20,000 bases of DNA, taken from the IMG/VR virus record IMGVR_UViG_3300027687_000007. The stretch is one strand, 5' to 3'. This DNA comes from an uncultured virus (IMG/VR IMGVR_UViG_3300027687_000007) (taxonomy: Duplodnaviria; Heunggongvirae; Uroviricota; Caudoviricetes; Crassvirales). Positions 8,386-13,667 of the stretch are shown piece after piece. The notes beneath the pieces are model-generated. The model worked only from the letters and a program-made list of their open reading frames with translations, was not told the DNA's origin and did not search any database. Position numbers and translations under genes: made by a program. Numbering within the stretch: position 1 is the first letter of the stretch; the number at the start of each line of letters is the position of its first letter.

Positions 8386-8853
8386 TTATGCGTAGACTCT
8401 TATTTCTATCGATGCTCCTGTTAGAAGTGAATCGAAACTAGTGTCTATGGTTACGGTAGTTGTGGTAGGACTTGCCCACTCTATGTTAGCAGTTGCTGTT
8501 GCAGAACCTCCATTTATAAATACCATTGTTTTGTTTAAGGTAAAGAAAGAATCTGCTATAGTAGCAGTATATGCGCCTGCTCCTGTTCTTGTCCATGCTA
8601 TTGTTCCACCTGTAGTGTTTTGCATTATTGTAGCAACTGGTGGATTAACAACTCCTGCTTGCGTGAGTAAAGCTGTATATACTTTATAACCTCCAGCGAA
8701 ACCTGTGTTTATAAGTGAAGCTACATTAGATAGTGTAAAGTTTCTAGTTAAATTGGCTTCTCCACCATCTAGTTGCTGCACGTTCATCTGTGTTCCTACG
8801 AGTAGTGTGTCTGCAGCCGGTGTACCCAGTGGGTATGATATTATATCTGCCAT
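8386..8853 (-). CDS. Putative virion structural protein
   Basis: 155 aa; N-terminus MADIISYP resembles neighbour's MARISSYP; first gene after a class II motif. Confidence 0.7.
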   Translation of the reverse strand: MADIISYPLGTPAADTLLVGTQMNVQQLDGGEANLTRNFTLSNVASLINTGFAGGYKVYTALLTQAGVVNPPVATIMQNTTGGTIAWTRTGAGAYTATIADSFFTLNKTMVFINGGSATATANIEWASPTTTTVTIDTSFDSLLTGASIEIRVYA

Positions 8854-8877
8854 TTATTTTGTGTTTGTTATATCCTA

Positions 8878-8906
8878 TATACTTACATATTTAAAGAAGT
8901 TTTTAC
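8878..8906 (-). promoter_or_regulatory. Class II putative late promoter GTAA-N16-GTAAGTATA
   Basis: About 25 nt upstream of the structural operon ATG (8853); matches two other copies. Confidence 0.65.
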
Positions 8907-8910
8907 AAGT

Positions 8911-8955
8911 GTGACAATAGGTAGTTACTTATATAACTTATAAGGCTTATGTCAC
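8911..8955. promoter_or_regulatory. 45-bp inverted-repeat site GTGACAWWAG-N25-CTWWTGTCAC, copy 1
   Basis: GTGACAATAG...CTTATGTCAC; same length and half-sites as 15686-15730. Confidence 0.6.
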
Positions 8956-9006
8956 TAAAATAAAAAAGTATTACAAATACAGGGCAGTAGCACCCCTCCT
9001 CTCCTT

Positions 9007-9155
9007 TTCACTCTTCACTTTCTCAGTAAAACGCTTATTTTTACGCCGTCCCCAGCCACTTTTCACTCGTTTCACATGTTTTATTAGACATTTTCCTCCA
9101 CATTCCACATAACCTATTCACATTACAATTCACATTCACTCAAAACAATTCACAT
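9007..9155 (+). repeat. Cluster of TTCAC short direct repeats in a G-poor tract (possible ori/packaging/terminus region)
   Basis: TTCAC at 9007, 9014, 9062, 9071, 9117, 9129, 9135, 9149; ACAATTCACAT twice (9125, 9145). Confidence 0.55.
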
Positions 9156-9156
9156 A

Positions 9157-9200
9157 TTTACATACAAAATACTTTCGGTAACAGATAATATAAATGTAAC
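9157..9200 (+). promoter_or_regulatory. Class I putative early promoter, copy 1
   Basis: TTACATACAAAATA-N9-ACAGATAATATAAATGTAAC. Confidence 0.8.
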
Positions 9201-9217
9201 AAACAAACATTAATACT

Positions 9218-9316
9218 ATGTCAAAAGAAAAAATCAGTAACATTATCGGTCTCACTATCACATTTGGTTTCATCATTCCATCACTAATAATAGTAACAAT
9301 CCACATAATGAGTTAG
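9218..9316 (+). CDS. 32-aa single-pass membrane microprotein (MSKEKISNIIGLTITFGFIIPSLIIVTIHIMS)
   Basis: ATG 37 nt after the start of the ACAG box; long hydrophobic stretch. Confidence 0.6.
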   Translation: MSKEKISNIIGLTITFGFIIPSLIIVTIHIMS

Positions 9317-9326
9317 TTATAGTAAG

Positions 9327-9343
9327 TATGACATTGTGTCATA
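9327..9343. promoter_or_regulatory. Operator-like palindrome TATGACA-N3-TGTCATA
   Basis: Perfect 7-bp arms; second copy at 9897-9911. Confidence 0.5.
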
Positions 9344-9411
9344 AGTCAGACATATTGACATGTCGACTAAGTACTTAACCACTTTTACAACTACTAAATA
9401 AATATACACTC

Positions 9412-9455
9412 TTTACAAACAAAATACTATATCAAACAGATAATATAAATGTAAC
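9412..9455 (+). promoter_or_regulatory. Class I putative early promoter, copy 2
   Basis: TTACAAACAAAATA-N9-ACAGATAATATAAATGTAAC. Confidence 0.8.
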
Positions 9456-9470
9456 CAATTAAAACTATAT

Positions 9471-9647
9471 ATTATTAAACTATCAATCAACAAATATCAA
9501 ATCAAAAAAACTATTAATATTCTAACAAATAATCATTACAATATTAAATCTTTAAATAATAAAATAATTATATTATCTCAATATCAAACTAATAATATAA
9601 CTAAATTACTAAATACTAATTATATAATATATAAAATAAATAAATAA
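9471..9647 (+). CDS. Possible G-free ORF with a non-AUG (ATT) start, ~58 aa (IIKLSINKYQIKKTINILTNNHYNIKSLNNKIIILSQYQTNNITKLLNTNYIIYKINK)
   Basis: Frame open 9444-9644, ending TAA TAA TAA; ATT lies at the usual start distance from the promoter; no G in 9452-9671. Confidence 0.4.
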   Translation: MIKLSINKYQIKKTINILTNNHYNIKSLNNKIIILSQYQTNNITKLLNTNYIIYKINK

Positions 9648-9669
9648 TAATAACTTAAATAAATAAACT

Positions 9670-9897
9670 ATGTCAAAATTAAATTCAAAAAGATTCGTCA
9701 TCAGACAATCACTAATCGGAAAAAATCAAATCATTGAAGTAACATTCAAAAATGGAAAATCAGTAACTTATAATCACGATAAAGTGTATGAAGTTATGAA
9801 GTCTAAACTTCAAACTATGAATTGTTTCTTAAAGTATAAATCTTATACATCTTCTACTTCAGTTCCAGTACTCGTCAGAGATTTAATGGAAGTGTAA
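9670..9897 (+). CDS. Hypothetical early protein, 75 aa
   Basis: ORF track; AAATAAACT leader before ATG. Confidence 0.75.
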   Translation: MSKLNSKRFVIRQSLIGKNQIIEVTFKNGKSVTYNHDKVYEVMKSKLQTMNCFLKYKSYTSSTSVPVLVRDLMEV

Positions 9898-9911
9898 TGA
9901 CAATCTGTCAT
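9897..9911. promoter_or_regulatory. Operator-like palindrome ATGACA-N3-TGTCAT
   Basis: Matches 9327-9343; overlaps a further TGTCATGACA palindrome. Confidence 0.5.
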
Positions 9912-9961
9912 GACAAGGTGACTCACCGAACCAGAATGATACACAAACTGGTGAGATCTTA

Positions 9962-10002
9962 AGACATAATGGTTAGTAGTGGTTCGATTCCACTCATGTC
10001 TA
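9962..10002 (+). ncRNA. tRNA-like minihelix (acceptor-like stem plus T arm, no anticodon arm)
   Basis: AGACAT/ATGTCT stem; AGTGG-TTCGATT-CCACT T arm; short linker containing TGG. Confidence 0.45.
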
Positions 10003-10042
10003 CAAACAAAATATTATTACTAACAGATAATATATACGAAAT
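9999..10042 (+). promoter_or_regulatory. Class I putative early promoter, copy 3
   Basis: CTACAAACAAAATA-N9-ACAGATAATATATACGAA. Confidence 0.75.
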
Positions 10043-10061
10043 CAATAAATAAATAATAAAT

Positions 10062-10184
10062 ATGAAAAAATTAATCAATCAAATCCAATCTCAATTTCCA
10101 TTCAATCCATTGACCGACTGTCGAGAAAAATATAATGAAATGATTCAAGATTATTTATATGAAGAAATAATAATAAATCTATAA
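10062..10184 (+). CDS. Hypothetical microprotein, 40 aa (MKKLINQIQSQF...)
   Basis: Manual translation; directly after the promoter; tightly packed with the next ORF. Confidence 0.6.
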   Translation: MKKLINQIQSQFPFNPLTDCREKYNEMIQDYLYEEIIINL

Positions 10185-10185
10185 T

Positions 10186-10326
10186 ATGAATTATATTAAA
10201 AACCAAATACTAAGAGACGAGATGTATAGTGATCTGATTCAAGATTACGATACTTCTAACATGAGTGAACAAGAACTATCTAACACTCACGATAAAATAA
10301 TAACTATAATAAATAATAAACTATGA
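10186..10326 (+). CDS. Hypothetical microprotein, 46 aa (MNYIKNQILRDE...)
   Basis: Manual translation; ATGA overlap with next gene; shares NQI and IQDY with the previous ORF. Confidence 0.6.
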   Translation: MNYIKNQILRDEMYSDLIQDYDTSNMSEQELSNTHDKIITIINNKL

Positions 10327-10457
10327 AATATACACTAACTTGTAATAACGGTAAAGAAATCGACATGACTTCTTACATAATCCAACAATCAGAAAACAAA
10401 ATAACTAGACAAGATGTTCTTAACAGAATAGAGTTCTATAAATCAACTAATCAATAA
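10323..10457 (+). CDS. Hypothetical microprotein, 44 aa (MKYTLTCNNGKEIDM...)
   Basis: Manual translation; translationally coupled. Confidence 0.65.
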   Translation: MKYTLTCNNGKEIDMTSYIIQQSENKITRQDVLNRIEFYKSTNQ

Positions 10458-10461
10458 TACT

Positions 10462-10581
10462 ATGGGACATATGAACACCTACTTACTTAAAATAAGTTAC
10501 AGAAAATACAATAAATGTTACAGTGAATTAACTAGTGACGAAAGATCAACCGTTTTAAATATATACTATGACTTCTACTAA
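10462..10581 (+). CDS. Hypothetical microprotein, 39 aa (MGHMNTYLLKISY...)
   Basis: Manual translation; fills the gap in the packed operon. Confidence 0.55.
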   Translation: MGHMNTYLLKISYRKYNKCYSELTSDERSTVLNIYYDFY

Positions 10582-10774
10582 ATTCAATGATTACCCTCAA
10601 GAACAGATCGACGCAAAACTTAAACAAGTCGAAGAGTTCGAATTAAAGTTCGGTGAAAAATCCGTAAGTAAATCATGGAGAAAATGGTGTACTGACGCGA
10701 GATATAGACAAAACGAGTGGCAATTCAGACAGAACATAGCGAATTCAATAACAAAATCTAATACAATAATATGA
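10568..10774 (+). CDS. Hypothetical protein, 68 aa
   Basis: ORF track; overlaps neighbours. Confidence 0.7.
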   Translation: MTSTKFNDYPQEQIDAKLKQVEEFELKFGEKSVSKSWRKWCTDARYRQNEWQFRQNIANSITKSNTII

Positions 10775-10968
10775 ATAAAAAGAAAGCGATCACACTAGTG
10801 TGTGTAACATTAATGACAACAGGTGGATATCTACTAGGTGTCGACAACGGTAAACAACAGAAAGTAGATCAAATACTAACTACTATGTCAGATCTTCAAA
10901 TGGAATGGTATATGTGGCAAGATGTTGAGAAGATAGTAGAATCTAAAAGTATTCATCACTTTGAATAG
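10771..10968 (+). CDS. Hypothetical protein with N-terminal signal/TM segment, 65 aa
   Basis: MNKKKAITLVCVTLMTTGGYLLG: basic then hydrophobic N-terminus. Confidence 0.7.
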   Translation: MNKKKAITLVCVTLMTTGGYLLGVDNGKQQKVDQILTTMSDLQMEWYMWQDVEKIVESKSIHHFE

Positions 10969-11260
10969 TTTAATGATCGCGATAGCGATATCCTTAACAG
11001 GACAAGTAGAAACTAAACTATGTAACTTAAAATGTACTAATCATACTAAAGAAGTCATAAGAGAAACCTCTCCAGATATCATGGAAGATCCTAGATATTA
11101 TGATGGTATTGAAAGCGGTTATATATTATTATGTAACGGTGAAGCTGAAGGATTTACTAACCACAATACAGGTGAAATCTTCTGTGACGGAACTAATCAC
11201 GAGTGTAGCGTAAACAATACGTGTAAAGACGGTGAAGGTGAGTGTTTTGTATGTTATTAA
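10961..11260 (+). CDS. Cys-rich, possibly exported protein (start uncertain: TTG 10961 or ATG 10973)
   Basis: Hydrophobic N-terminus; 8 Cys including a C-terminal CFVC. Confidence 0.65.
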   Translation: MNSLMIAIAISLTGQVETKLCNLKCTNHTKEVIRETSPDIMEDPRYYDGIESGYILLCNGEAEGFTNHNTGEIFCDGTNHECSVNNTCKDGEGECFVCY

Positions 11261-11303
11261 TTACAAACAAAATATCGTGTCATACAGATAATATAAATGT
11301 AAC
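11260..11303 (+). promoter_or_regulatory. Class I putative early promoter, copy 4
   Basis: TTACAAACAAAATA-N9-ACAGATAATATAAATGTAAC. Confidence 0.8.
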
Positions 11304-11319
11304 AAATAATAAATAAACT

Positions 11320-11520
11320 ATGCAAAAAATTAAATTCATTAATTCATCAACAATTAAATTATCCAATAAAACCTACAAAGGTTATCCTATTGGCGAATTA
11401 CCTAAAAGATTTGCTTTCATTTACAATGAAGACAACGATCAAGAAGGCATCACAGAATGGTTCAATTACAAAGGTCTTACCTATGTAGAACATAATCCTT
11501 CAATCTGGTCTTATGTCTAG
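11320..11520 (+). CDS. Hypothetical protein, 66 aa
   Basis: ORF track; follows the promoter. Confidence 0.75.
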   Translation: MQKIKFINSSTIKLSNKTYKGYPIGELPKRFAFIYNEDNDQEGITEWFNYKGLTYVEHNPSIWSYV

Positions 11521-11770
11521 TCCAAGTAATATGAAAGAGCTTCTAATCTATGTCGAAGCACAGAAAAAAATCAGAGCAGACGGGCATAGACGTCTAACTC
11601 TCCTCAACGGAACGTGTAGTGGACTAACTGACGCAGAGTACAACAGAGTTGTAACCAGACAGAAATCTAGTTTCTCAAAAGCTAGAAAGTTCACTCACAA
11701 CCGTATGTGGCAAGAAACACACAAGAAATTTGACATCAAAGAATTAAAATTAATAAAACAAACACTATGA
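11513..11770 (+). CDS. Hypothetical basic protein, 85 aa
   Basis: ORF track; overlapping packing. Confidence 0.7.
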   Translation: MSSPSNMKELLIYVEAQKKIRADGHRRLTLLNGTCSGLTDAEYNRVVTRQKSSFSKARKFTHNRMWQETHKKFDIKELKLIKQTL

Positions 11771-11961
11771 ATCAAGAAAAACTATATTGGAATCCAGAAA
11801 CTATTGAATACTTTGTATCAATGTTTGAACTTAATGACTTCGCGTCTATATCTAAATCTATACTAGCATTTGTAATAGATGATTGTGATCAAACTCACAA
11901 CTCAGTTCAATTTATATTCAATGATTTAATAACAGAAGTAGAATCTAAAATAAAATACTAA
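11767..11961 (+). CDS. Hypothetical acidic protein, 64 aa
   Basis: ORF track; ATGA coupling. Confidence 0.7.
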   Translation: MNQEKLYWNPETIEYFVSMFELNDFASISKSILAFVIDDCDQTHNSVQFIFNDLITEVESKIKY

Positions 11962-11962
11962 T

Positions 11963-12226
11963 ATGAAATTAATAAAAATTACAAAAGGTGGAGCTCTACA
12001 TTTTAAATTGAGCGACGGTAGAATAGGCGCTTGTTACGAAAGCGGATACGTAAGAGTTAGCTCAAAAGGTATTAACAGTAGATTATATCAAATTAATAAA
12101 ATGATCAAAGTACCAGCTCCTAGTGAGTGGAATAGAGATGACTATTGGCACAGAAGAGTATTAATAACTAATTGTGTTGACAGAGTACAATGTTTACTTA
12201 ACTTTGATAACAATAACTGTAAATAA
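11963..12226 (+). CDS. Hypothetical protein, 87 aa
   Basis: ORF track. Confidence 0.7.
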   Translation: MKLIKITKGGALHFKLSDGRIGACYESGYVRVSSKGINSRLYQINKMIKVPAPSEWNRDDYWHRRVLITNCVDRVQCLLNFDNNNCK

Positions 12227-12227
12227 T

Positions 12228-12365
12228 ATGCCTAACATTAAACTAACAAAAAGCGATTGTACTTTTGTACACTATGTACTAAGAATGTACGCACAACAGA
12301 CACCTGGAATGGACGCAGAAGATAAAGCAGAAATAAGAGATGTCGCAAATAAATTTAAACTATGA
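12228..12365 (+). CDS. Hypothetical microprotein, 45 aa (MPNIKLTKSDC...)
   Basis: Start corrected to ATG 12228, just after the upstream stop. Confidence 0.7.
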   Translation: MPNIKLTKSDCTFVHYVLRMYAQQTPGMDAEDKAEIRDVANKFKL

Positions 12366-12586
12366 GTAAAATGAGTGAACTAGATCAAATAGCGCAAGGC
12401 GTAGCAGATCACATGAAAGAATTAACGTATGATAGCGTTACATGGCAAATATCAGATCAACCTGTAGACGGTGATAACTTTAACGATCTACATAGTATGG
12501 TAATGAAGAAAGCCGTAGAATATCTATATATAGATGTAGTAATTGGTGGTAAGCAAAATGTTGCAGGTCCATTACAAACAAAATAA
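12362..12586 (+). CDS. Hypothetical protein, 74 aa
   Basis: ORF track; ATGA coupling. Confidence 0.7.
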   Translation: MSKMSELDQIAQGVADHMKELTYDSVTWQISDQPVDGDNFNDLHSMVMKKAVEYLYIDVVIGGKQNVAGPLQTK

Positions 12587-12614
12587 TATCATAATCAGAT
12601 AATATAAATGTAAC
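12571..12614 (+). promoter_or_regulatory. Class I putative early promoter, copy 5 (upstream of the Zn-finger gene and RNA array)
   Basis: TTACAAACAAAATA-N9-TCAGATAATATAAATGTAAC. Confidence 0.8.
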
Positions 12615-12631
12615 AAATAAAAATAAATAAT

Positions 12632-12820
12632 ATGTATTGTAGATGCGGAAGTAATGTTCATCAAGTAAGAATTAATCTAGGTTATAAGACGTGTATGCCT
12701 TGTAGTACAACACAGACATACTCTTATGTTCCTATAATAGAACACAAAACCGGCAACACAATACAAATTGTCAGCCAAGAAGTCAGTGCATCCGTGCACC
12801 GTGCTTGGCGACGTAAGTAG
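12632..12820 (+). CDS. Small C4 zinc-finger protein, DksA/TraR-finger-like
   Basis: CRCG-x6-R-x7-CMPC spacing resembles the DksA/TraR C4 finger. Confidence 0.55.
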   Translation: MYCRCGSNVHQVRINLGYKTCMPCSTTQTYSYVPIIEHKTGNTIQIVSQEVSASVHRAWRRK

Positions 12821-12915
12821 CTAGACGAGTAGCTTAATTAGGATTTAGGTGGGCGAATGCTGTAAAGATACCACGACAAATGGTACCTAAATTACATAAG
12901 TGAATTGCTAGTTAC
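12817..12915 (+). ncRNA. Unknown structured RNA 1 (long irregular hairpin with an AGUA/GAA loop-E-like motif)
   Basis: Pairings 12817-24/12908-15, 12832-36/12897-901, 12843-49/12886-92, 12869-73/12881-85. Confidence 0.55.
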
Positions 12916-12918
12916 AAA

Positions 12919-13021
12919 TGTGCAGCGAATAAATAACGTGTGTGATATGGAGGTACAAAGTATAGACAAATGTCGAACTCCCATCGGATGGATAACCGTA
13001 ACACTAGCAAATGACTGCACA
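12919..13021 (+). ncRNA. Unknown structured RNA 2 (closing stem, large bubble, branched head)
   Basis: TGTGCAG/CTGCACA, GTGT/ACAC, GGAG/CTCC, and GAC/GTC and CGG/CCG hairpins. Confidence 0.5.
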
Positions 13022-13024
13022 CAC

Positions 13025-13102
13025 GGGGGTGACTTGGTATTGACGTGATAGAAAGCCTATATGGAACTATTGCGGAAGACAGTTCGAATCTGTCCACCTC
13101 CA
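13025..13102 (+). ncRNA. Mini-tmRNA: tRNA-like domain only, no mRNA-like domain
   Basis: GGGGGTG/CACCTCC-A acceptor with G3-U70 and A73; stemless D loop ACTTGGTATTGA; P2a CGTGATAG/CTATTGCG; GAA linker; GACAG-TTCGAAT-CTGTC T arm. Confidence 0.8.
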
Positions 13103-13105
13103 CTT

Positions 13106-13178
13106 CGCGCTGTAGAGCAGTGGCCAGCTCGTCGGGCTCATAACCCGAAGGTCGTCGGTTCGAATCCGGCCAGCGCAA
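13106..13178 (+). tRNA. Initiator tRNA-fMet (CAT); CCA not encoded
   Basis: Full cloverleaf; C1:A72 mismatch; three G-C pairs in the anticodon stem; CAT at 13139-13141. Confidence 0.95.
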
Positions 13179-13193
13179 CTAAAAAATTAAATT

Positions 13194-13667
13194 ATGAGTA
13201 CAAGAAACGTAACTATGGTAGTCCATAGATCAGAATCAGAAAAATATGTCAAAGGTTTTGCAGTTGATCCAAGCGATGTGGCTGACAAAAGCTATGTAAA
13301 CATGTACTTACATCATGACGGTTACCCTGAATACCAAGGTGTTCAAATAGCTAACTGGATAAAGTATATGCAAAATGACAAAGGTTTTACAAACTTTGGT
13401 GATGGTTCAAGAATAGCTTCACACTTGGTTAAAGACATGCATTATAACTCACAATACTTATATCCTAGCGTAGATTTTATCGACCACAATTACACTTATA
13501 TTATATGGGTAGGTAAATCTGACGTATGGGTAAGTTGTTGGAACCAACACACTAACACTTGTGTATTTGTATCAACACCTGATAAGATAATTAAAAAATA
13601 TTCCCGACTAGATACCATGGAATATACAGACTGGAGTTACAAACAAAATAATATAACTAACAGATAA
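13194..13667 (+). CDS. Conserved phage hypothetical protein (YxHxDGYP motif)
   Basis: MSTR N-terminus and MYLHHDGYPE motif, which I recall from phage early proteins of unknown function. Confidence 0.75.
   Translation: MSTRNVTMVVHRSESEKYVKGFAVDPSDVADKSYVNMYLHHDGYPEYQGVQIANWIKYMQNDKGFTNFGDGSRIASHLVKDMHYNSQYLYPSVDFIDHNYTYIIWVGKSDVWVSCWNQHTNTCVFVSTPDKIIKKYSRLDTMEYTDWSYKQNNITNR

What the first reader, a model, noticed from the sequence alone, without database searches (positions are those of the whole stretch)
13025..13102. Phage mini-tmRNA: tRNA-like domain with the whole mRNA-like domain deleted
Seen: a 78-nt RNA with every tmRNA tRNA-like-domain hallmark. These are a G3-U70 acceptor pair with A73, a stemless GG-containing D loop ending GA(C), an 8-bp P2a, a 3-nt GAA linker and a canonical T arm. 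P2a is closed by a 15-nt loop instead of about 270 nt of pseudoknots and tag ORF. Known: G3-U70 is the AlaRS identity element, SmpB binds this elbow, and tag-less tmRNAs occur in some protist mitochondria. Inference: the phage makes an alanylatable SmpB partner that cannot add a degradation tag. It could be a decoy that blocks host trans-translation, a tag-free ribosome rescue factor, or a template-free Ala-tailing device countering mRNA/tRNA-cleaving defences.
Basis: partly seen in the sequence, partly recalled or inferred. Interest (0 to 1): 0.92.

Follow-up and report, generated by a model that had tools for sequence, protein, structure and literature searches.

The report
Phage tag-less mini-tmRNA gene
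A marine phage carries a real 78-base gene for only the alanine-accepting, tRNA-like end of the bacterial ribosome-rescue RNA (tmRNA), a type first noted in mycobacteriophage DS6A, and it probably interferes with the host's rescue-and-tagging system.

Summary
Window 13025-13102 (+) folds as described. It has a 7-bp acceptor stem with G3-U70 and A73, a stemless GG D region ending UUGAC, an 8-bp P2a closed by 15 nt, a GAA linker and a T arm. Rfam's tmRNA model matches it end to end at 49.2 bits (cut-off 47), with 304 model positions replaced by 11 nt. ARAGORN misses it.

It is a conserved gene. Relatives keep the element at 82-97% identity while flanks are unalignable. P2a, the T stem and acceptor pairs 5:68 and 6:67 covary strongly.

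It is not new in kind. Mycobacteriophage DS6A has a published 'TLD only' tmRNA, and a similar molecule is reported to inhibit tmRNA in E. coli. This scan also found such genes before on other DNA (155 notes).

Three results go beyond what I found in print. A strict motif finds 110 such stretches in viral contigs. Sister phages carry divergent alanine-identity TLD-like RNAs with hypervariable middles at the same slot. Poribacteria keep a chromosomal copy beside a normal tmRNA.

The most likely mechanism is a host-charged, SmpB-binding competitor of host tmRNA (about 0.45). Tag-free rescue, a processing signal and a defence decoy remain open.

The parts
13025..13102 (+). Mini-tmRNA gene (TLD only), 78 nt, without an encoded CCA (followed by CTT)
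   Evidence: Sequence. MFE fold equals the proposed structure. RF00023 49.2 bits, global. Own model R1 90.9 bits.
13025..13031 (+). Acceptor stem, 5' strand (GGGGGUG); G3 at 13027
   Evidence: Pairs with 13095-13101. In syntenic relatives 3:70 is G-U in 55 of 60 elements, A-U in 5 and G-C in 0.
13032..13043 (+). Stemless D-loop analogue with GG (13036-13037) and UUGA(C)
   Evidence: Aligns to the tmRNA consensus GGaUUCGAC. It holds equivalents of E. coli U17 and G19, which contact SmpB (PMC8363625, passages).
13044..13051 (+). P2a, 5' strand
   Evidence: 8 bp with 13067-13074. 7 of 8 P2a pairs show changes on both sides across 99 distinct sequences.
13052..13066 (+). 15-nt closing loop with the inner motif AAAG-CC-UAUAU-GG-AA
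   Evidence: The same A-rich bulge plus short GC hairpin recurs in about two thirds of the family, and in DS6A.
13067..13074 (+). P2a, 3' strand
13075..13077 (+). GAA linker; with the preceding G it reads GGAA, against the tmRNA consensus GGAC
   Evidence: alignment. The A (position 52 of the element) is invariant in A2 and A3 although the search pattern did not fix it. It corresponds to E. coli A334 of the SmpB Trp122 pocket.
13078..13094 (+). T arm: GACAG / UUCGAAU / CUGUC
   Evidence: A compensatory C-G to G-C change occurs in L002 and L004. 3 of 5 T-stem pairs covary.
13095..13102 (+). Acceptor stem, 3' strand (CACCUCC; U70 at 13099) and discriminator A73 (13102)
   Evidence: The discriminator is A in 60 of 60 syntenic elements.
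13106..13179 (+). tRNA-Met (CAU) 3 nt downstream, initiator-like (C1 opposite A72; GGG/CCC in the anticodon stem)
   Evidence: ARAGORN. Rfam tRNA 65.4 bits, with the 1:72 non-pair marked. The initiator reading rests on recalled identity rules.
12817..12915 (+). Long irregular hairpin module between the small upstream gene and the mini-tmRNA
   Evidence: Fold. 90-93% conserved over 92 nt in L156, L166 and L204. Its core, 12846-12893, lies inside the TLD-like scaffold of L187.
12918..13023 (+). Variable spacer or module that abuts the 5' end of the mini-tmRNA
   Evidence: Contigs of two RNA-library runs join 12917 to 13024 and skip these 106 nt. This is a strain variant.
12600..12622 (+). Repeated promoter-like motif TAATATAAATGTAACAAAT..., upstream of the unit
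   Evidence: 4 copies on the + strand of the window with up to 2 mismatches, 0 expected. It is also repeated in relatives. The promoter function is inferred.
12632..12820 (+). Small ORF (62 aa) with CxC and CxxC motifs, conserved in the clade
   Evidence: ORF list. 80-93% DNA conservation of 12598-12842 in many relatives. No Pfam or PHROG hit.

Best explanation
Identity (about 0.93): window 13025-13102 is a functional, selected phage gene for a 'TLD-only' tmRNA. It keeps the acceptor stem with the alanine identity pair G3-U70 and A73, the stemless D-loop analogue, helix P2a and the T arm. It has no resume codon, no tag frame and no pseudoknots. It is of the same kind as the published DS6A 'TLD only' tmRNA.

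Mechanism (about 0.45; every step is inferred from established tmRNA biochemistry, none is shown here):

1. The RNA is transcribed with the adjacent initiator-like tRNA-Met.
2. Host tRNA-processing enzymes trim it, and the host CCA-adding enzyme completes it, because no CCA is encoded.
3. Host AlaRS charges it through G3-U70.
4. Host SmpB binds its elbow, and EF-Tu may bind too.
5. Lacking an mRNA-like domain, it cannot direct tagging or termination. It therefore competes with host tmRNA for SmpB, and possibly for stalled ribosomes, and lowers ssrA-tagging during infection.

The expected benefit to the phage is that its proteins made from truncated or cleaved messages escape tag-directed proteolysis, or that a tmRNA-dependent host response is blunted.
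For: Shown here:

- Rfam tmRNA matches globally at 49.2 bits (cut-off 47), with 304 model positions replaced by 11 nt. Complete relatives score 60.6 and 63.9 bits.
- The fold is the tmRNA TLD fold.
- The 13 window-type elements found by synteny are 65/79 to 76/78 identical to the window. Their 100-nt flanks align at only 46-66%, and their ligases are 58-87% identical.
- On 99 distinct family sequences, 94.3% of pair cells are paired against 41-53% with slid partners. Changes on both sides occur in 7 of 8 P2a pairs, 3 of 5 T-stem pairs and 2 of 7 acceptor pairs.
- In a sample not selected on the acceptor stem (80 ligase-syntenic loci, 60 elements), 3:70 is G-U in 55, A-U in 5 and G-C in 0. The neighbouring pair 4:69 takes three forms: G-C 14, C-G 25, A-U 21. 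The discriminator is A in 60 of 60.
- Equivalents of the SmpB-contact nucleotides U17, G19 and A334 are present.
- No phage SmpB and no full-length tmRNA occur in two complete relatives. No neighbour protein is conserved across about 60 mini lineages. The RNA must therefore work through host factors.

Weak evidence: contigs of RNA libraries from three studies cover the element without differences.
Against: - No charging, SmpB binding, processing or inhibition was tested for this RNA.
- The primary paper (Mao et al. 2009) is not held, so the inhibition result is second-hand. By the 2014 wording it concerns 'a similar molecule'.
- The RNA-library data are contigs. DNA carry-over cannot be excluded, and ends cannot be read.
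- Sister phages carry, at the same slot, divergent elements that keep G3-U70, A73 and the T arm but have lost the UCGAC...GGAC signature. They score only 36-38 bits on the tmRNA model. If all of these share one function, that function may depend on alanine identity and tRNA shape more than on SmpB.
- 5 of 60 syntenic elements have A3-U70.
- The host is inferred only: Flavobacteriia, from 33-45% primase/helicase identity to cultured phages. Its tmRNA and SmpB were not compared.
- The invariant positions in the IMG/VR survey were fixed by the search pattern.
Confidence: 0.45

Rival explanations
1. Productive, tag-free ribosome rescue. Ala-mini-tmRNA with SmpB and EF-Tu enters stalled ribosomes and accepts the nascent chain, adding one alanine. 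The peptidyl-RNA is then released by drop-off or hydrolysis. Ribosomes are freed without phage proteins being marked for proteolysis, which would be useful when host nucleases cut mRNA or tRNA during infection.
For: It rests on the same structural evidence as the main reading: G3-U70, A73, T arm and SmpB-contact nucleotides. Natural CDS-less tmRNAs persist with SmpB in jakobid mitochondria and in two plastids, and are thought to help with incomplete mRNAs (PMC11915505, passage). Poribacteria keep a chromosomal mini beside a normal tmRNA, which is hard to explain as self-inhibition. The mini is co-located with an initiator-like tRNA, and other lineages place it next to tRNAs.
Against: With no resume codon and no stop codon, the ribosome has no encoded way to terminate. 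No stop codon lies 3' of the loop in any frame (read). No release-factor-like or hydrolase gene is linked: Pfam finds nothing in the neighbours, and no partner is conserved. The cited E. coli result is inhibition, not rescue.
Confidence: 0.2
2. RNA-processing or stability module. The acceptor/T-arm minihelix serves mainly as a recognition site for host tRNA 5' and 3' processing enzymes. It would punctuate and stabilise a polycistronic transcript (small gene, hairpin modules, tRNA-fMet, early genes), like tRNA-like 't-elements'. Charging would be irrelevant.
For: - The element sits 3 nt upstream of a tRNA in the window. It is within 1-8 nt of a tRNA in 5 of 60 surveyed loci and in at least 9 syntenic loci.
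- The middle of the scaffold is hypervariable, and total length ranges from 53 to 121 nt.
- Hairpin modules occur inside the scaffold in some phages and free beside it in others.
- The junction of a module indel coincides with the 5' end of the mini.
Against: Processing enzymes do not need a G-U at 3:70 or an A73. Yet G-U is kept in 55 of 60 elements with G-C never seen, while 4:69 changes freely, and A73 is kept in 60 of 60. The D-loop analogue and the GGA linker, which lie outside the minihelix, are also conserved. 40 of 60 surveyed loci have no tRNA within the stretch held.
Confidence: 0.13
3. Counter-defence decoy. The RNA soaks up or misleads a host anti-phage factor that recognises tRNA or tmRNA shape, such as a tRNA- or tmRNA-cleaving nuclease, a system with SmpB-like domains, or RNase R control through tmRNA-SmpB.
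For: CoCoNuT type IV restriction systems carry SmpB-like domains that the authors predict may bind tmRNA (PMC11090510, passages). The phage anti-CRISPR AcrIIIA1 works with tRNA and tmRNA fragments (PMC11662646, passages). The mini is linked to a phage initiator tRNA, a class of gene that phages use to replace cleaved host tRNAs (recalled).
Against: There is no direct evidence. No defence or anti-defence gene is linked. Conservation of alanine identity is not explained by a pure shape decoy.
Confidence: 0.1
4. Non-functional remnant: a decayed ssrA copy, or an attP-type fragment of the host tmRNA gene.
For: Phages that integrate into ssrA carry 3' fragments of it (PMC10865867, PMC9004378, passages). 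Two such 3'-only fragments turned up in cultured phages.
Against: - Both halves are present and pair.
- Covariation is strong.
- The element is far better conserved than its flanks.
- There is a distinct size class under one motif: 110 stretches of 60-89 nt against 20 of 95-119 nt.
- None of the 19 window ORFs scanned against PHROGs or the 21 scanned against Pfam matched an integrase.
Confidence: 0.02

Closest known systems
'TLD only' tmRNA of Mycobacterium phage DS6A (tmRNA Website tmID 11587; form 'Standard, no CDS'; Hudson, Lau and Williams 2014, PMC4131195; PMC11915505)
   Same: It is phage-borne and about 80 nt long (JN698994 28478-28557). It has G3-U70, A73, a stemless D region, P2a, a T arm, no tag frame and no encoded CCA. 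It shares the inner motif, an A-rich bulge plus a short GC hairpin closing P2a. It matches my model R1 at 56.4 bits and RF00023 at 43.2 bits.
   Different: It comes from a different phage group and host phylum: an actinophage with an integrase against a marine Flavobacteriia-type phage. It is GC-rich, has C rather than A at position 8, and is not next to a tRNA. The window element scores higher on the tmRNA model (49.2 bits).
CDS-less organellar tmRNAs (jakobid and other mitochondria; two Mallomonadaceae plastids, about 65 bp)
   Same: These are natural tmRNAs reduced to the tRNA-like part, without a tag reading frame (PMC11915505, passage).
   Different: They are organellar and vertically inherited, and the mitochondrial ones are permuted two-piece forms. 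They partner a dedicated imported SmpB. They are not encoded by a parasite of the translation system.
Full-length phage tmRNAs (e.g. mycobacteriophages Bxz1 and Catera, Bacillus phage G; two-piece ssrA of phage Melnitz)
   Same: They are phage-encoded members of the tmRNA family (PMC4131195, PMC9004378). Many full-length matches to the same motif exist in viral contigs: at least 120 in each of two length bins, with both scans capped.
   Different: They keep the resume codon, tag frame and pseudoknots, so they can tag. The window element cannot.
Engineered TLD fragments used for SmpB co-crystals and in-vitro trans-translation studies
   Same: They have the same parts: acceptor, D-loop analogue, a short closed P2a and a T arm. 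The TLD is the SmpB-binding region (PMC3022190, passages; PMC8363625).
   Different: They are laboratory constructs. That they are alanylated and accept peptide in vitro is recalled, and I did not read it here.
tRNA-like processing signals
   Same: Both are anticodon-less acceptor/T-arm mimics placed beside other RNAs in a transcript.
   Different: The window element additionally keeps alanine identity and tmRNA-specific D-region and linker nucleotides. I did not read the t-element paper.
YrlA (tRNA-like bacterial Y RNA, RF02553)
   Same: It is a non-coding RNA with a tRNA-like module, and it is also found in phages.
   Different: It scores only 14.5 bits against a gathering score of 69, and the match spans the mini together with the tRNA-Met. 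Rejected.

Membership tests
tmRNA (Rfam RF00023), TLD part | Score at or above the family's gathering cut-off (47 bits), aligned end to end | tested here: met
   49.2 bits, model positions 1-374; relatives score 60.6 and 63.9 bits. Not reported by the whole-window gathering run.
tmRNA (Rfam RF00023), TLD part | 7-bp acceptor stem with G3-U70 and discriminator A73 (alanine identity) | tested here: met
   In the synteny-based sample G-U is kept in 55 of 60 elements and A73 in 60 of 60.
tmRNA (Rfam RF00023), TLD part | Stemless D-loop analogue with GG and (U/C)GAC, and a GGA(C) linker before the T stem (SmpB-contact nucleotides U17, G19, A334 in E. coli) | tested here: met
   The window has GGUAUUGAC and GGAA. 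Contacts come from PMC8363625. The equivalent of A15 is U.
tmRNA (Rfam RF00023), TLD part | Helix P2a joining the 5' and 3' parts, supported by covariation | tested here: met
   7 of 8 pairs have changes on both sides; 91.2% of cells are paired.
tmRNA (Rfam RF00023), TLD part | T arm with a 5-bp stem and a 7-nt UUCGAAU-type loop | tested here: met
tmRNA, complete molecule | mRNA-like domain: resume codon, tag reading frame and in-frame stop | tested here: not met
   Only 15 nt close P2a, and no UAA, UAG or UGA lies 3' of the loop. 304 model positions are deleted.
tmRNA, complete molecule | Pseudoknots PK1-PK4 | tested here: not met
   Absent.
tmRNA, complete molecule | Called as tmRNA by ARAGORN | tested here: not met
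   No call in the window, in 60 survey loci or in 80 syntenic loci.
tmRNA, function | Alanylation by AlaRS | not testable with these tools
   Only the identity elements can be read.
tmRNA, function | Binding of SmpB and entry into stalled ribosomes | not testable with these tools
   Contact nucleotides are present. No phage SmpB in two complete relatives.
'Standard, no CDS' tmRNA form (DS6A type) | One-piece TLD with P2a closed by a short loop or hairpin, no tag frame | tested here: met
   Same architecture as DS6A. One model finds both.
tRNA (RF00005), including tRNA with an intron | D stem, anticodon arm with a 7-nt loop, variable region | tested here: not met
   ARAGORN makes no call. The tmRNA model is the best clan member at this place. 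Family members close P2a with 4-7-nt loops that cannot hold an anticodon arm.
tRNA-like processing signal (t-element-like) | Acceptor/T minihelix next to another RNA; no constraint on identity nucleotides | tested here: inconclusive
   The minihelix and the tRNA adjacency are present. However, the identity nucleotides are constrained, which this family does not require.

The most novel reading that the evidence does not exclude
In this marine phage clade the alanine-identity TLD may be a chassis rather than an end in itself. At one syntenic slot, sister phages carry TLD-like RNAs of 53-121 nt whose acceptor, G3-U70, A73 and T arm are fixed. The P2a position holds different structured hairpin modules, and the same modules lie free beside a minimal mini-tmRNA in other phages, including this window. 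The chassis would give any inserted RNA tRNA-type processing, CCA addition, stability and perhaps delivery to SmpB, EF-Tu or the ribosome. That would make it a natural 'tRNA scaffold' for swappable RNA cargo, with the 78-nt window form as the empty chassis.
Probability: 0.1. Interest if true: 0.8.

Novelty: new member of a known kind. Interest (0 to 1): 0.5.

Why it matters
Trans-translation is the main ribosome-rescue and quality-control route of bacteria, and it is an antibiotic target. A phage gene that keeps exactly the parts of tmRNA needed for charging and SmpB binding, and drops the part that tags, points to deliberate viral interference with that route.

In what I read, print knows one phage case (DS6A). 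It also lists only nine 'standard, no CDS' sequences among 97,179 tmRNA database entries. Supplementary tables were closed and may list more.

The data here show the type is common in uncultured phages: 110 stretches under one strict motif. It is under selection for alanine identity. It is missed by ARAGORN (0 calls), and Rfam's default whole-window gathering run missed the window copy. It also exists as a conserved chromosomal gene in one bacterial phylum.

This makes the question 'do phages switch off or re-route trans-translation, and why?' testable with a 78-nt RNA.

Tried and rejected
- The window's own assembly is not held. The nearest record, G001, is a 12-kb fragment without the element, which says nothing.
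- BLAST of the element and its surroundings against 50,697 phage records gave only tRNA-Met matches and short chance matches.
- The five nearest cultured relatives were searched whole with model R1: Cellulophaga phi10:1, Nekkels_1 and phi19:1, Tenacibaculum JQ, and Flavobacterium elemoA. No mini was found, only 22- and 19-bit hits in phi10:1. No culturable carrier was identified.
- BLAST of three other minis against phage records gave only 3' T-arm/acceptor matches.
- Two candidate minis in cultured phages were rejected because each lacks a 5' acceptor strand. One is the 'tRNA-OTHER' of Stenotrophomonas phage Ps15. The other is a segment after an RF-1-domain gene in Tunturiibacter phage Tunturi_4.
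- YrlA, permuted tmRNA and a plastid UTR family scored far below their cut-offs. No Rfam family matches 8800-13030 at E up to 1.
- The sigma-70 promoter and terminator scan of 12200-13400 gave nothing on the + strand. Bacteroidota-type promoters are not covered by that scan.
- Pfam and PHROGs gave nothing informative for the neighbouring small genes.
- The only flank protein shared by as many as 4 mini lineages is a DNA methyltransferase-like ORF, read by eye (DPPY motif) and not scanned against a library; I judged it incidental.
- SmpB (PF01668) is absent from two complete relatives and from DS6A.
- No full-length tmRNA lies at the syntenic slot. The longest element is 121 nt.
- The RNA-library runs are contigs only. 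Parts without cover, and the zero depth at 12300-12450, are not evidence of a transcript start.
- Mao et al. 2009 could not be read.
Full report
**1. The observation**

Window 13025-13102 (+) reads as a 78-nt RNA with these parts:

| Part | Sequence or size | Coordinates |
|---|---|---|
| Acceptor stem, 5' strand | GGGGGUG | 13025-13031 |
| Acceptor stem, 3' strand | CACCUCC | 13095-13101 |
| G3 opposite U70 | wobble pair | 13027 and 13099 |
| Discriminator | A | 13102 |
| D region, no stem | 12 nt, holds GG, ends UUGA(C) | 13032-13043 |
| P2a | 8 bp | 13044-13051 with 13067-13074 |
| Closing loop | 15 nt | 13052-13066 |
| Linker | GAA | 13075-13077 |
| T arm | GACAG / UUCGAAU / CUGUC | 13078-13094 |

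- The minimum-free-energy fold is exactly this structure: -25.8 kcal/mol, z -2.96, 1 of 200 shuffles as good.
- ARAGORN calls only the tRNA-Met at 13106-13179.
- Rfam at gathering thresholds on the whole window also lists only that tRNA.
- Searching 12900-13250 in E-value mode, the tmRNA model RF00023 aligns to 13025-13105 from its first to its last position at 49.2 bits (gathering score 47). In that alignment 304 model positions are replaced by 11 nt.
- The other families at this place score far below their cut-offs (YrlA 14.5 against 69; permuted tmRNA 11.1 against 47).

**2. The setting**

- The window is phage DNA. It encodes a 1640-aa tail-fibre protein, ATP-dependent DNA ligase, a sigma factor, an Erf-like annealing protein, an exonuclease and a primase/helicase.
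- Two complete relatives are 65,174 and 71,510 bp, the latter with direct terminal repeats.
- The nearest cultured phages by primase/helicase infect Cellulophaga (44.5%), Tenacibaculum (41.8%), and then Riemerella and Flavobacterium. The host is therefore probably a marine member of the Flavobacteriia. This is an inference.
- The 20 public runs that hold the stretch are all labelled marine, seawater or marine plankton metagenomes, from 13 studies.
- The element lies 3 nt upstream of a tRNA-Met. That tRNA has C1 opposite A72 and a GGG/CCC anticodon stem. By recalled identity rules this marks an initiator tRNA.
- Neither gene encodes CCA.
- Upstream lie three features:
  - a promoter-like motif present 4 times on the + strand of the window, 0 expected;
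  - a small conserved CxC/CxxC ORF;
  - about 200 nt of hairpin modules.

**3. It is a conserved, selected gene**

- A 21-mer from the element found five viral contigs. In them the element is nearly invariant while both flanks are unrelated. One T-stem pair is changed on both sides (C-G to G-C), and one P2a pair goes from U-G to U-A.
- A sample that does not select on the element came from the ligase 1.5 kb downstream, which retrieved 80 related loci.
- Those 13 elements are 65/79 to 76/78 identical to the window. The adjacent 100 nt align at only 46-66%, and the ligases are 58-87% identical.

**4. The wider family and covariation**

A strict motif with the middle left free found the following. 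The motif fixes parts of the acceptor stem, GG, U.GAC and the T loop.

| Collection and size class | Stretches found |
|---|---|
| Viral contigs, 60-89 nt | 110 (87 distinct sequences with L001-L005 included) |
| Viral contigs, 95-119 nt | 20 |
| Species genomes (bacteria and archaea) | 30 |

- The minis are thus a distinct size class, not a smear of decaying genes.
- R1 run over 100 sources (345 kb) gave exactly one hit per source, at the motif's place, and no tRNA gene at E up to 0.01.
- On that alignment (99 distinct rows), 94.3% of pair cells form standard pairs, against 41-53% when the partner is slid by 1-3 columns.
- Changes on both sides occur in 7 of 8 P2a pairs, 3 of 5 T-stem pairs and acceptor pairs 5:68 and 6:67.
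- Two caveats apply. The alignment was fitted to the model, and the invariant acceptor, D-region and T-loop positions were fixed by the search motif.
- The GGA before the T stem was not fixed by the motif and is nevertheless invariant or nearly so.

**5. Alanine identity in an unbiased sample**

- In the 80 ligase-syntenic loci, R1 found 62 matches at E up to 1. Two are the tRNA-Met genes. The other 60 are elements, in 58 loci.
- Of the 22 loci without an element, 11 are cut less than 3 kb upstream of the ligase and cannot be judged. Presence is therefore 58 of 69 assessable loci.
- The 47 elements that are not window-type are divergent relatives at the same slot. They are 53-121 nt long, with acceptor GGGCGUG/CACGUCC or GGGAGUG/CACUUCC, a stemless GG region, a hypervariable central hairpin, an AAC linker and a T arm.
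- ARAGORN calls none of them.
- Three of them, in L163, L185 and L187, hit Rfam tmRNA best at 36.1-38.1 bits, below the cut-off, and not tRNA. The L194 element and the second L185 copy gave no match at E up to 1.
- Over all 60 elements:

| Feature | Count |
|---|---|
| Pair 3:70 | G-U 55, A-U 5, G-C 0 |
| Pair 4:69 | G-C 14, C-G 25, A-U 21 |
| Discriminator | A in 60 of 60 |
| 3' trailer | CUA in 57 of 60 |

- A wobble pair held while its neighbour changes freely is the signature expected of selection for AlaRS recognition. The role of G3-U70 is stated in PMC8363625.
- The five A-U cases include shortened, low-scoring copies and one copy of a tandem pair.

**6. What it needs from the host**

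- Two complete relatives hold only the mini and no full-length tmRNA. They hold no SmpB gene either.
- Clustering all ORFs within 1.5 kb of the minis in the 110 survey loci L006-L115 gave about 60 mini lineages. No protein family is shared by more than four of them, and that one is a DNA methyltransferase-like ORF by its motifs.
- Pfam and PHROGs give nothing for the small neighbouring genes.
- The RNA therefore has to act through host factors.
- The E. coli nucleotides that contact SmpB have equivalents in the window element. They are U17 and A334 of the Trp122 pocket, and G19, whose change to C abolishes binding (PMC8363625, passages). The equivalents lie in UUGAC and GGAA. The equivalent of A15 is U.

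**7. What is known**

- Hudson, Lau and Williams (2014) list 'Mycobacterium phage DS6A (TLD only)'. [quoted passage not shown]
- The 2025 tmRNA database paper repeats this. It also reports CDS-less tmRNAs in mitochondria and two plastids, and counts 9 'Standard, no CDS' among 97,179 unique sequences, with 79 phage sequences (PMC11915505, passages).
- Its supplementary tables, which I could not open, may list more phage cases. Mao et al. 2009 is not held.
- I located the DS6A element at JN698994 28478-28557. It has the same architecture, including the A-rich bulge and short GC hairpin that close P2a in the window and in about two thirds of the family. It scores 56.4 bits on R1.
- A search for 'tmRNA-like' with 'bacteriophage' and one for 'tmRNA', 'SmpB', 'phage-encoded' and 'inhibit' found no paper describing a wide phage family of this type.
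- This scan itself holds 155 earlier notes in at least 131 genomes on such elements. The scan has therefore seen the kind many times on other DNA.

**8. Mechanism**

- The best-supported reading is a host-processed, host-charged, SmpB-binding competitor of host tmRNA that cannot tag. Every step is inferred from the anatomy and from tmRNA biochemistry. The only experimental support is the cited inhibition result.
- I give it about 0.45.
- The rivals are tag-free rescue (0.2), a processing or stability module (0.13), a defence decoy (0.1) and a remnant (0.02).
- The strongest point against a pure SmpB decoy is that the divergent sister elements keep alanine identity but not the tmRNA-specific D-region and linker motifs.
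- The strongest point against a pure processing signal is the constraint on G3-U70 and A73.

**9. Expression**

- Contigs from four metatranscriptome runs of three studies cover the element. One piece spans 13024-13154 without a difference. Another spans 12655-13144 with 4 differences.
- This is presence in RNA libraries, not proof of transcription. Contigs cannot show ends.
- In two of the runs a contig joins 12917 to 13024 and skips 106 nt. This is a strain variant whose junction falls at the 5' end of the mini.

**10. Modules**

- Central inserts of the divergent TLD-like elements recur outside any scaffold in other phages. Examples:
  - 47 nt of the L187 insert are identical to a segment 129-175 nt upstream of the mini in L204, and 89.6% identical to window 12846-12893.
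  - Inserts of L158, L201, L155 and L229 lie in the 240 nt upstream of the mini in L186.
- The window segment is part of a long hairpin, 12817-12915.
- No Rfam family matches this region.
- I cannot explain this pattern. It is the basis of the novel reading.

**11. Verdict**

The breadth, the covariation, the unbiased evidence for alanine identity, the hypervariable sister elements and the Poribacteria copy add to what I found in print. The function remains untested.

Noticed in passing
L116-L145 (genome contigs); G004:C1:4004650-4004735 and G005:C1:4711312-4711396: 21 of the 30 bacterial-genome matches to the mini-tmRNA motif are in Candidatus Poribacteria. They are a conserved 82-83-nt TLD-only gene with compensatory changes in P2a. 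In the two chromosomes checked it lies between a Na/Ca-exchanger gene and a PLP-decarboxylase gene, which is not prophage-like, and a normal full-length tmRNA (184.7 and 177.3 bits) sits elsewhere in the same chromosome.
   Followed up: partly
L155-L234, about 2-2.6 kb upstream of the ligase gene: Sister phages carry divergent TLD-like RNAs (53-121 nt) at the syntenic slot. G3-U70, A73 and the T arm are fixed, and the central hairpins are hypervariable. Tandem copies occur in L185 and L201. Five copies have A3-U70.
   Followed up: partly
window 12817-12915 and 12846-12893; L187:379-485; L204:356-402; L186:5788-6019: Hairpin modules that form the middle of TLD-like scaffolds in some phages lie free, upstream of a minimal mini-tmRNA, in others, including the window. 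No Rfam family matches them.
   Followed up: partly
window 13106-13179: The tRNA-Met directly after the mini has C1 opposite A72 and three G-C pairs at the base of the anticodon stem. By recalled rules this is an initiator tRNA. Relatives have U1-A72 or A1 opposite A72.
   Followed up: no
window 9186-9208, 9441-9463, 11289-11311, 12600-12622 (+): A 23-nt AT-rich motif (TAATATAAATGTAACAAAT...) occurs four times on the + strand in intergenic places, with 0 expected by chance. It is repeated several times per genome in relatives. It is probably a phage promoter, and the phage has its own sigma factor.
   Followed up: partly
window 13052-13066; L146 (JN698994) 28505-28523: The A-rich bulge plus short GC hairpin that closes P2a is shared by the window element, DS6A and about two thirds of the family, despite their distance. 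In the window it reads AAAG-CC-loop-GG-AA. Its role is unexplained.
   Followed up: partly
window 12917/13024: Contigs of two RNA-library runs carry a variant that skips 12918-13023, with one T in between. This is a module-sized indel ending exactly at the 5' end of the mini.
   Followed up: no
L243 (MZ326868.1) 340-714; L242 (OL702939.1) 366-432: Stenotrophomonas phage Marzo has a 375-nt 'tmRNA' annotation that overlaps tRNA-Leu and tRNA-Thr. The same place in phage Ps15 is annotated 'tRNA-OTHER', a 67-nt pseudo-tRNA. The Ps15 sequence (L242) has a tmRNA-like T arm and 3' acceptor strand with CCA but no matching 5' acceptor strand.
   Followed up: partly
L244 (PP885687.1) 370-432: In Tunturiibacter phage Tunturi_4 a tmRNA-like 3' end (GGAC, T arm, acceptor strand, CCA) follows directly after a small RF-1-domain (ArfB-like) gene. 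No 5' acceptor strand is seen nearby.
   Followed up: partly
L140 (1,660-bp contig): A window-type mini with one G-U to A-U change in P2a sits on a 1.66-kb contig binned into an alphaproteobacterial MAG. This is probably a mis-binned phage fragment and is not host evidence.
   Followed up: no
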